From: a virus
Lineage: Duplodnaviria > Caudoviricetes
Virus record (IMG/VR): IMGVR_UViG_3300032247_001707
Coordinates: 1-37,736 of that record
Strand: one strand, 5' to 3'
DNA length: 37,736 bases
Shown here: one piece after another, positions 3,145 through 3,195 of the stretch
Layout: the number at the start of each line of letters is the position of its first letter
Numbering within the stretch: position 1 is the first letter of the stretch
Made by a program: the position numbers and the translations under genes
The notes under the pieces: generated by a model
What the model saw: the letters and a program-made list of their open reading frames with translations, nothing else
The model's database searches: none
Told to the model about the DNA's origin: nothing

Positions 3145-3195
3145 AAAAAGGGCGAACTCGTCCATTTCTGGAGTAAGTCCGCCCTACATTAGGTG
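3145..3195 (-). terminator. Terminator/attenuator hairpin with conserved CACCTAATGTAGGG leader (copy 1)
   Basis: AGGGCGGACTT...TCCA-GAAA-TGGA...GAGTTCGCCCT followed by TTTT; leader shared with 35042-35103. Confidence 0.7.

What the first reader, a model, noticed from the sequence alone, without database searches (positions are those of the whole stretch)
3145..3195. Conserved CACCUAAUGUAGGG + terminator element gating both late gene blocks: candidate antitermination system
Seen: two intergenic sites (3145-3195 and 35042-35103, both minus strand) share CACCTAATGTAGGG(G)CGGA, with 14 nt identical and 18/19 overall. In each, the motif runs into a long hairpin plus U tract; the upper stems differ in sequence but keep pairing. 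CCUA-AUG-UAGG can form a mini-hairpin using the same AGG needed for the terminator base, so the folds are mutually exclusive. Copy 1 precedes MTase-terS-terL-portal. Copy 2 lies about 35 nt after a good promoter and precedes protease-capsid-tail. Both downstream genes appear to start at TTG. No Q, RinA or ArpU-type late regulator is recognisable. Inference: a protein- or RNA-controlled read-through switch similar in logic to BglG/SacY RAT sites; the 94-aa basic ORF 3209-3493 just upstream is a candidate activator.
Basis: partly seen in the sequence, partly recalled or inferred. Interest (0 to 1): 0.85.

Follow-up and report, generated by a model that had tools for sequence, protein, structure and literature searches.

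The report
Twin hairpin gates on phage terminators
An uncultured temperate phage carries the same short sequence at the foot of the two predicted transcription stop signals in front of its packaging genes and its head-tail genes; it is predicted to fold into a small bulged RNA hairpin that blocks the stop signal, and a phage protein, possibly the orphan encoded just upstream, likely binds it to switch late genes on.

Summary
Observation confirmed and extended. The 14-mer occurs exactly twice (3182-3195, 35090-35103, minus strand), each time on the 5' foot of one of the two strongest predicted minus-strand terminators. Two of the three lower-stem pairs change on both arms between the copies, and 6 nt are shared with the terminator. 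Both copies follow an extended -10 promoter-like site at 31 and 35 nt. A bare 14-mer repeat is chance-level here, but this placement is not (1 of 496 terminator pairs; 0.0008 expected). Best reading: a RAT-like local antitermination gate, off by default, opened by a phage RNA-binding protein (0.6). The 94-aa ORF is the leading candidate by position, with only a faint DUF2292-like signal (about 0.3). It is not RAT/CAT, ANTAR, Q, ArpU, XtrA or Com. Weak point: no third copy was reachable. The one close relative is known only from its proteins, and distant relatives lack the gate. Nothing functional is shown. Earlier unreviewed notes of this scan describe the same logic in other phages, so this is probably one more instance of a recurring, apparently unpublished kind of late-gene control.

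The parts
3225..3252 (-). Promoter-like site 1 (-35 at 3247-3252, 16-nt spacer, TG extension, -10 at 3225-3230), inside the 3' end of the 94-aa ORF
   Evidence: consensus scan; predicted only
3180..3197 (-). Antiterminator hairpin, copy 1: 3-bp stem, bulged A (3194), 4-bp stem, AUG loop (3187-3189)
   Evidence: -7.7 kcal/mol, z -2.84, 1 of 200 shuffles as good
3145..3185 (-). Intrinsic terminator 1 (stem 3149-3185, U tract 3145-3149); 3180-3185 shared with the hairpin
   Evidence: -22.6 kcal/mol
1886..3138 (-). First gated gene: ParB-N6/N4 DNA methyltransferase, SD 3134-3138, TTG at 3127; followed by terS, terL (across the origin) and the portal-gpF fusion
3209..3493 (-). 94-aa basic orphan ORF, last gene of the cro-led early operon; candidate RNA-binding antiterminator
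   Evidence: real gene: relative P0002 81% identical, SD -9.3 kcal/mol; no family; faint DUF2292 signal; role inferred
35137..35164 (-). Promoter-like site 2 (-35 at 35159-35164, 16-nt spacer, TG extension, consensus -10 at 35137-35142), just after the portal stop codon
   Evidence: not listed by the consensus scan because the -35 matches 3 of 6
35088..35105 (-). Antiterminator hairpin, copy 2: same bulge, upper stem and loop; lower stem changed on both arms
   Evidence: alone -8.4 kcal/mol, z -1.53, 19 of 200 shuffles as good
35042..35093 (-). Intrinsic terminator 2 (stem 35048-35093, U tract 35042-35048); 35088-35093 shared with the hairpin
   Evidence: -24.9 kcal/mol
33994..35031 (-). Second gated gene: Mu gpI-like head protease, SD 35027-35031, likely start TTG 35019; followed by capsid, neck, tail and lysis genes

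Best explanation
Two copies of one 18-nt sequence sit on the 5' foot of the predicted terminators in front of the packaging and head-tail operons, and each likely works as a local RNA antitermination gate that is off by default and is opened by a phage-encoded RNA-binding protein. Steps: (1) host RNA polymerase would start at an extended -10 promoter about 20-30 nt upstream of the hairpin (predicted); (2) the bulged AUG-triloop hairpin folds first during transcription (computed); (3) without a ligand, the terminator's 3' arm displaces the 6 shared bases, being 8.1 (copy 1) and 2.7 (copy 2) kcal/mol more stable, and a 70-90-nt leader would be released, so late genes stay silent in the lysogen (energies computed; termination inferred); (4) after induction an early-operon protein would recognise the invariant bulge, upper stem and loop and hold the hairpin shut; the residual stem then ends several bases short of the U tract and transcription would read through (inferred); (5) the second gate with its own promoter would give head-tail genes extra output (inferred). 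The likeliest protein is the 94-aa ORF 3209-3493 (about 0.3 on its own; the 57-aa Zn-ribbon ORF 11236-11409 or another orphan are alternatives).
For: Same register on the two strongest minus-strand terminators. Two of 7 hairpin pairs change on both arms between the copies and 14 of 14 cells pair, against 29-57% when the partners are slid. The bases that need not pair (bulge, loop) are identical while the terminators' upper stems differ, as expected of a recognition site. The shared segment has a partner in both folds in both copies. Same promoter type and spacing, 31 and 35 nt from the -10 to the bulged A. The only large gaps between 1244-3493 and 17071-37311 are the two gates and one that is the open frame of a tail-chaperone extension. 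No known late regulator found. The 6-nt overlap equals the low end of the RAT range of 6-10 nt (PMC5393181, passages). The 94-aa ORF ranks first of 827 six-frame segments against a profile of 9 DUF2292 proteins (5.5 bits, E 0.62; 2 of 2000 shuffles as high).
Against: Only two copies, from one genome: with two sequences the covariation is not significant (123 of 500 shuffles as high). No third copy in the genome, in 51 related or pattern loci, among 90, 17 and 1 IMG/VR pattern hits or in 401 genomes of one phylum that need not be the host's. None of 18 distant relatives with the same kind of protease has a terminator in the 500 nt before the protease match, so the gate is not a general feature of this head module. 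Hairpin 2 alone is not unusually stable. The copy 1 -35 matches 4 of 6 and the copy 2 -35 3 of 6. The DUF2292 signal is below any threshold, falls to 2.4 bits for the relative P0002, has hhalign probability 9.6%, and was one of several families tried.
Confidence: 0.6

Rival explanations
1. The hairpin is a loading site for processive antitermination (nut-, put- or conAn-like): a phage or host factor is handed to RNA polymerase, which then ignores downstream terminators, and the overlap is secondary.
For: A promoter, a short leader and a terminator ahead of late genes is the lambda pR'/tR' layout (recalled). A small basic protein could act like N.
Against: The motif lies on the terminator itself in the same register twice, leaving no distance for loading. 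A processive system would not need a second copy, and no further intergenic terminator was found in the late block. No Q match. The two promoter spacers share no obvious element.
Confidence: 0.12
2. A factor-independent kinetic attenuator: the competing hairpin only makes the terminators leaky, and the module was duplicated within the genome.
For: Copy 2 needs only 2.7 kcal/mol to flip, and no known RNA-binding regulator was found.
Against: Leakiness would not require identical loop and bulge bases while the stems vary. Copy 1 is predicted to be almost fully off (8.1 kcal/mol). A temperate phage with host-type late promoters needs a timed switch (inference).
Confidence: 0.12
3. The motif is a DNA operator (11-bp imperfect palindrome) for one of the phage's HTH proteins, acting as a repressor site or roadblock downstream of the two late promoters.
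For: The core is palindromic with a 3-nt spacer. The genome has three small HTH_3 proteins besides CI (4864-5139, 7154-7408, 11632-11853).
Against: The outer arms pair only with a one-base offset (the bulged A) and change on both arms, which fits a single strand and not a symmetric DNA site. The orientation and the register on the terminator are the same in both copies.
Confidence: 0.08
4. The trigger is a ribosome on the AUG-UAG start-stop in the loop, an antisense RNA, or a host factor.
For: Both loops read AUG followed at once by UAG. The genome has a structured non-coding stretch near 15375-15885. A segment at 31545-31558 is complementary to 12 of the 14 motif bases on the late transcript.
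Against: No usable SD before either loop AUG (+1.9 and -1.9 kcal/mol against -9.3 for real starts), and neither AUG is at the predicted 5' end. A genome-wide duplex scan gave no partner common to both leaders among the 8 best of each except the other copy's opposite strand, and none from the non-coding stretch. The 31545 match has 0.17 expected by chance.
Confidence: 0.08

Closest known systems
RAT hairpins with BglG/SacY/LicT (CAT-domain) antiterminators (PMC5393181 and PMC12591593, passages read)
   Same: A short leader hairpin shares its 3' bases (6 nt here; 6-10 in RAT) with a more stable intrinsic terminator; off by default; one hairpin per operon, repeated across a regulon.
   Different: 18 nt with one bulge and an invariant triloop, against 29-33 nt with two conserved internal loops and a variable apical loop; no CAT domain in the genome; gates phage late genes, not sugar operons.
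ANTAR antitermination (EutV, NasR, AmiR; PMC3369936, passages read)
   Same: A small hairpin overlaps the terminator's proximal stem, and copies precede several genes. If only the inner 3 bp pair, the 5-nt loop has A at 1 and G at 4.
   Different: No upstream P1 hairpin in either leader, no ANTAR domain; the loop is 3 or 5 nt, where ANTAR loops are 6 (recalled).
DUF2292/YezD/OscA small proteins and the hairpin found after them in bacteria (seen here in 8 of 9 loci)
   Same: Hairpin of the same size class: 3-bp stem, unpaired A 5' of a 4-bp stem, short loop. Faint likeness of residues 39-58 of the 94-aa ORF to the DUF2292 core.
   Different: Host hairpins have a 2x1 internal loop and a 4-nt loop with another sequence; their model does not find the phage hairpins; PF10055 does not match the genome.
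Lambda Q with pR'/tR', and the RinA/ArpU late activators (recalled)
   Same: Late genes behind a host-type promoter and a terminator; the candidate regulator is the last early gene.
   Different: No Q or ArpU match and no RinA in PHROGs; the shared information lies in an RNA hairpin on the terminator, not in the promoter DNA.
Mu Com with the mom leader (PMC6483171, passages read)
   Same: A small phage protein binds a leader hairpin ahead of a DNA-modification gene; this phage has a 57-aa four-cysteine ORF.
   Different: Com acts on translation and reads CC(N)2-3GAG, absent here; PF10122 does not match; SD accessibility does not rise in the antiterminated fold.

Membership tests
RAT/CAT (BglG/SacY/LicT) | Leader hairpin overlapping an intrinsic terminator by 6-10 nt, mutually exclusive folds | tested here: met
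   6 nt shared in both copies, terminator favoured; range from PMC5393181 passages
RAT/CAT (BglG/SacY/LicT) | 29-33-nt hairpin with two conserved internal loops | tested here: not met
   18 nt, one bulge; no Rfam match at gathering score or at E up to 5
RAT/CAT (BglG/SacY/LicT) | CAT RNA-binding domain protein | tested here: not met
   PF03123: 0 matches at E<=1 in the phage; host genome unknown
ANTAR | Tandem P1 and P2 hairpins with A1 and G4 loops | tested here: not met
   single hairpin; region 5' of it unpaired in both leaders
ANTAR | ANTAR-domain protein | tested here: not met
   PF03861: 0 matches in the phage; no control genome was over the cut-off; host genome unknown
DUF2292/YezD with its hairpin | Protein matches the DUF2292 profile | tested here: inconclusive
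   PF10055 no match at E<=10; own 9-sequence profile ranks the 94-aa ORF first of 827 at E 0.62, 2 of 2000 shuffles as high, hhalign probability 9.6%
DUF2292/YezD with its hairpin | RNA hairpin of the host DUF2292 type | tested here: not met
   model R2 from 11 host hairpins does not list either copy at E<=10
Lambda Q / ArpU / XtrA / DUF3954 late regulators | Family protein in the genome | tested here: not met
   PF06530, TIGR01637, PF17356, PF13128: 0 matches each; for TIGR01637 and PF13128 no control genome was over the cut-off
Mu Com/mom | Com zinc ribbon and a CC(N)2-3GAG loop motif | tested here: not met
   PF10122 0 matches; motif from PMC6483171 passages is absent from the hairpin
Protein-dependent antitermination in general | Termination at the U tract and protein-dependent read-through | not testable with these tools
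   needs Term-seq, reporters or in vitro transcription
Protein-dependent antitermination in general | Known RNA-binding fold in the candidate protein | tested here: inconclusive
   AlphaFold2 on 2 sequences, pLDDT 54, helix plus 3-strand meander; best Z 3.5 (rmsd 6.7, 73 aligned) and no Foldseek match under E 0.001

The most novel reading that the evidence does not exclude
Temperate phages can time late genes with a one-protein, one-hairpin RNA switch unrelated to N, Q, put, RinA or ArpU. Here a new hairpin (bulged A, AUG triloop) is read by the 94-aa orphan, a remote offshoot of the DUF2292/YezD fold, giving a minimal orthogonal antiterminator pair and a first function for that protein superfamily.
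Probability: 0.25. Interest if true: 0.75.

Novelty: new variant of a known kind. Interest (0 to 1): 0.52.

Why it matters
Late-gene control is unexplained in many temperate phages that lack Q, RinA or ArpU. A local, RAT-like RNA switch read by a small phage protein was not found described for phage late operons in my paper searches (listings and abstract starts only), and a 2025 review of RNA-binding antiterminators has no occurrence of 'phage' (PMC12591593, word count). The library lacks most subscription papers, so this is not proof of absence. The element is tiny and directly testable with a reporter and one ORF. If the pair works it would add a new RNA-protein specificity and a compact orthogonal transcription switch. 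The score is held down because the same logic has already been noted, unreviewed, in many other phages of this scan, and this instance has only two copies and no reachable relative.

Tried and rejected
Search for further copies: IMG/VR exact 14-mer, 90 loci, none with the extended hairpin plus terminator on inspection of the printed flanks; 12-mer plus terminator foot, 17 loci, none real (10 of the 17 rescored with model R1, best E 0.1; the best-looking, L108, lies inside a 211-aa ORF); relaxed loop, 1 locus, not a match by fold or model; blastn of each leader against 50,697 phage records, only chance hits at E 0.1 or worse; 401 genomes of one phylum, 0; model R1 on 5 related virus fragments, 0. 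Relatives by protein: protease, capsid and terminase searches gave 50 loci at 22-52% identity (one search gave none); the closest, L127 (capsid 48%), has a plain promoter-like stretch before the protease. The 94-aa ORF has one homologue in 5.8 billion proteins, none in IMG/VR or the phage records; the one further HMMER hit is a long repeat protein, taken as spurious; ESM Atlas scores under 0.9. Sequencing runs: no RNA holder listed; other runs laid showed only methyltransferase pieces or short scraps. Dimer prediction for residues 20-94 of the 94-aa ORF: no answer (score 0.39, mark 0.42). Fold searches found nothing. A third terminator-like hairpin at 28661 lacks the motif but lies in the open frame of the tail-chaperone extension, so it was not counted as an ungated terminator. 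A translational switch was rejected: SD unpaired probability 0.43 to 0.32 and 0.59 to 0.28 on going to the antiterminated fold. The host could not be assigned (integrase about 30%, RecT about 40% to the nearest records). No supplements were read.

Full report
Setting. The window is a circular temperate phage genome: 123-nt terminal repeat, 42% GC; CI, serine integrase, RecET, ParB-methyltransferase, terminase, portal fused to a gpF-like domain, Mu gpI-like protease, capsid, tail and endolysin (PHROGs and Pfam). The host is unknown. Early genes run from cro (11853) down to the 94-aa ORF (3493-3209). Late genes follow on the same strand from 3127 across the origin to the lysis and tail-fibre genes.

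Observation. The 14-mer is present exactly twice, in the gaps 3128-3208 and 35020-35166. Each copy runs into a hairpin with a U tract, -22.6 and -24.9 kcal/mol. These are the two strongest of 12 minus-strand terminators in my scan, with leader z-scores of -5.6 and -3.5. The repeat alone is not remarkable: 9 repeats of 14 nt or more against 4.1 +/- 2.1 in 50 shuffles. Its position is: of 496 pairs among 32 predicted terminators only this pair shares 10 nt or more around the stem base, with 0.0008 expected at 14 nt (a test chosen after the fact). A contig of run X1, perhaps the source sample, agrees at both sites.

Anatomy. Folding growing transcripts shows an 18-nt hairpin that forms first: 3-bp lower stem, bulged A, 4-bp upper stem, AUG triloop. 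The bulge, upper stem, loop and the pair next to the bulge are identical in the two copies. The other two lower-stem pairs differ on both arms (14 of 14 cells paired, 29-57% when slid; but 123 of 500 shuffles reach the same covariation, because there are only two sequences). The same difference can be read as one inserted C-G pair. The extra G of copy 2 also pairs in the terminator, so the shared 6-nt segment has a partner in both folds in both copies. With the hairpin enforced, the ensemble is 8.05 (copy 1) and 2.67 (copy 2) kcal/mol less stable than the terminator, and the residual stem stops 5-6 nt short of the U tract. Both copies follow a TG-extended -10 with a -35 at 16 nt, 31 and 35 nt before the bulged A, with an A/U-rich unpaired leader. 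The methyltransferase starts at TTG 3127 with a strong SD. The protease most likely starts at TTG 35019 (SD -4.7 kcal/mol; none at 35043), and the relative's annotated N-terminus differs upstream of that codon. SD accessibility does not improve in the antiterminated fold, so the switch is transcriptional. One more terminator-like hairpin in the late block (28661) has no motif but lies in the open frame of the tail-chaperone extension.

Relatives. Protein searches show one close relative, known only by its proteins: P0002 (81% to the 94-aa ORF), P0004 (70%, protease) and P0039 (89%, capsid), each with a longest contig of 25,267 nt; that they share one contig is my inference from the length. Fifty loci of distant relatives were fetched. 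A covariance model of the two copies finds nothing better than E 2.5 in them and no third copy in the genome. None of 18 loci with a protease homologue has a terminator in the 500 nt before the match (one locus had only 136 nt). Pattern scans of IMG/VR gave 90, 17 and 1 loci, all background on inspection. Rfam has no match. The element is therefore lineage-restricted, and conservation is untested rather than refuted.

The factor. Six-frame family searches of the genome found no CAT, ANTAR, Q, ArpU, XtrA, DUF3954, DUF2292 or Com. PHROGs named no late activator among 59 proteins. The 94-aa ORF is real, basic, and the last early gene before gate 1; promoter 1 lies in its 3' end. It has no family, a low-confidence model (pLDDT 54) and no fold match. 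Earlier notes of this scan link similar gates to DUF2292-like proteins (unreviewed AI notes, leads only), so I fetched 9 DUF2292 loci from 151 genomes. Their profile ranks the 94-aa ORF first of 827 six-frame segments, but at 5.5 bits (E 0.62), with 2 of 2000 shuffles as high, 2.4 bits for P0002 and hhalign probability 9.6%. This is a hint, not a membership. Eight of the 9 host loci carry a hairpin of similar size after the gene (11 copies, picked by a pattern I wrote from the output), unknown to Rfam. A model of them does not find the phage hairpins. A second candidate is the 57-aa four-cysteine ORF 11236-11409, Com-like by eye only.

Mechanism and odds. A two-state RNA gate on both late terminators: about 0.8. 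Opened by a phage protein binding the hairpin locally: 0.6. That protein being the 94-aa ORF: about 0.3. Shown by sequence or computation: the repeat, its position, the two folds, their energies and the two-arm changes. Inferred: promoter use, termination, timing, the existence and identity of the protein. Rivals are processive loading (0.12), a factor-free leaky attenuator (0.12), a DNA operator (0.08), and ribosome, antisense or host control (0.08). The AUG-UAG in the loop has no SD, and the duplex scan gave no shared partner.

Comparison. It works like RAT/CAT antitermination: a 6-nt overlap against 6-10 nt (PMC5393181, passages). It is not a member: 18 nt and one bulge against 29-33 nt and two internal loops, and no CAT protein. 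It is not ANTAR (single hairpin; PMC3369936, passages) and not Com (motif and level of control differ; PMC6483171, passages). Paper searches (listings and abstract starts) did not show a local protein-hairpin switch for phage late genes; subscription papers and supplements were not seen.

Verdict. A real, well-formed regulatory element; a new variant of a known kind; interest 0.52. Most novel reading: a new minimal protein-RNA late switch with a remote DUF2292-like reader, probability 0.25, interest 0.75 if true.

Noticed in passing
window 15350-15885 (+): Non-coding stretch between the integrase and the tail-fibre/moron region with a promoter-like site by eye, many hairpins (z -2.84, 0 of 100 shuffles) and a terminator at 15869. 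It holds two tRNA-shaped pieces by eye: 15554-15633 (acceptor-like stem ending in ACCA) and 15710-15770 (no D arm). Neither piece folds better than shuffles; ARAGORN, Rfam and phage blastn find nothing. Possibly a degenerate tRNA array or an unknown ncRNA.
   Followed up: partly
L162-L168, L170, 20-110 nt after the DUF2292 stop codon: A conserved hairpin (3-bp stem, 2x1 internal loop, 4-bp stem, 4-nt loop) follows bacterial DUF2292 genes in 8 of 9 loci, twice in three of them; 92% of cells paired, 3 pairs with changes on both sides; not in Rfam. Likely the binding site of these proteins.
   Followed up: partly
window 30787-30810 and 30913-30936: 24-nt inverted repeat, 92% complementary, 102 nt apart, inside the neck gene 30719-31192.
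   Followed up: no
window 14903-15251: Direct repeat of 35 nt (14903, 15217) and a perfect 33-nt tandem duplication (14945-15010) right after the serine integrase; may include attP.
   Followed up: no
window 28385-28744 (-): Open frame that begins at an A run overlapping the end of the 130-aa gene 28693-29085: likely a frameshifted tail-chaperone extension.
   Followed up: partly
window 11236-11409 (-): 57-aa ORF with a good SD and four cysteines spaced like a zinc ribbon, third gene of the cro operon; no family.
   Followed up: partly
window 2025-2644: The methyltransferase's catalytic part occurs at about 98% identity in other runs (X2, X7, X8) without its flanks, a sign of a mobile module.
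   Followed up: no
window 5911-6402 (-): Fic-domain protein among the early genes.
   Followed up: no
window 29088-29103 (-): Strong GC hairpin without a U tract after the gene 29115-30011; same bulge-triloop geometry as the gate hairpin but another sequence.
   Followed up: no
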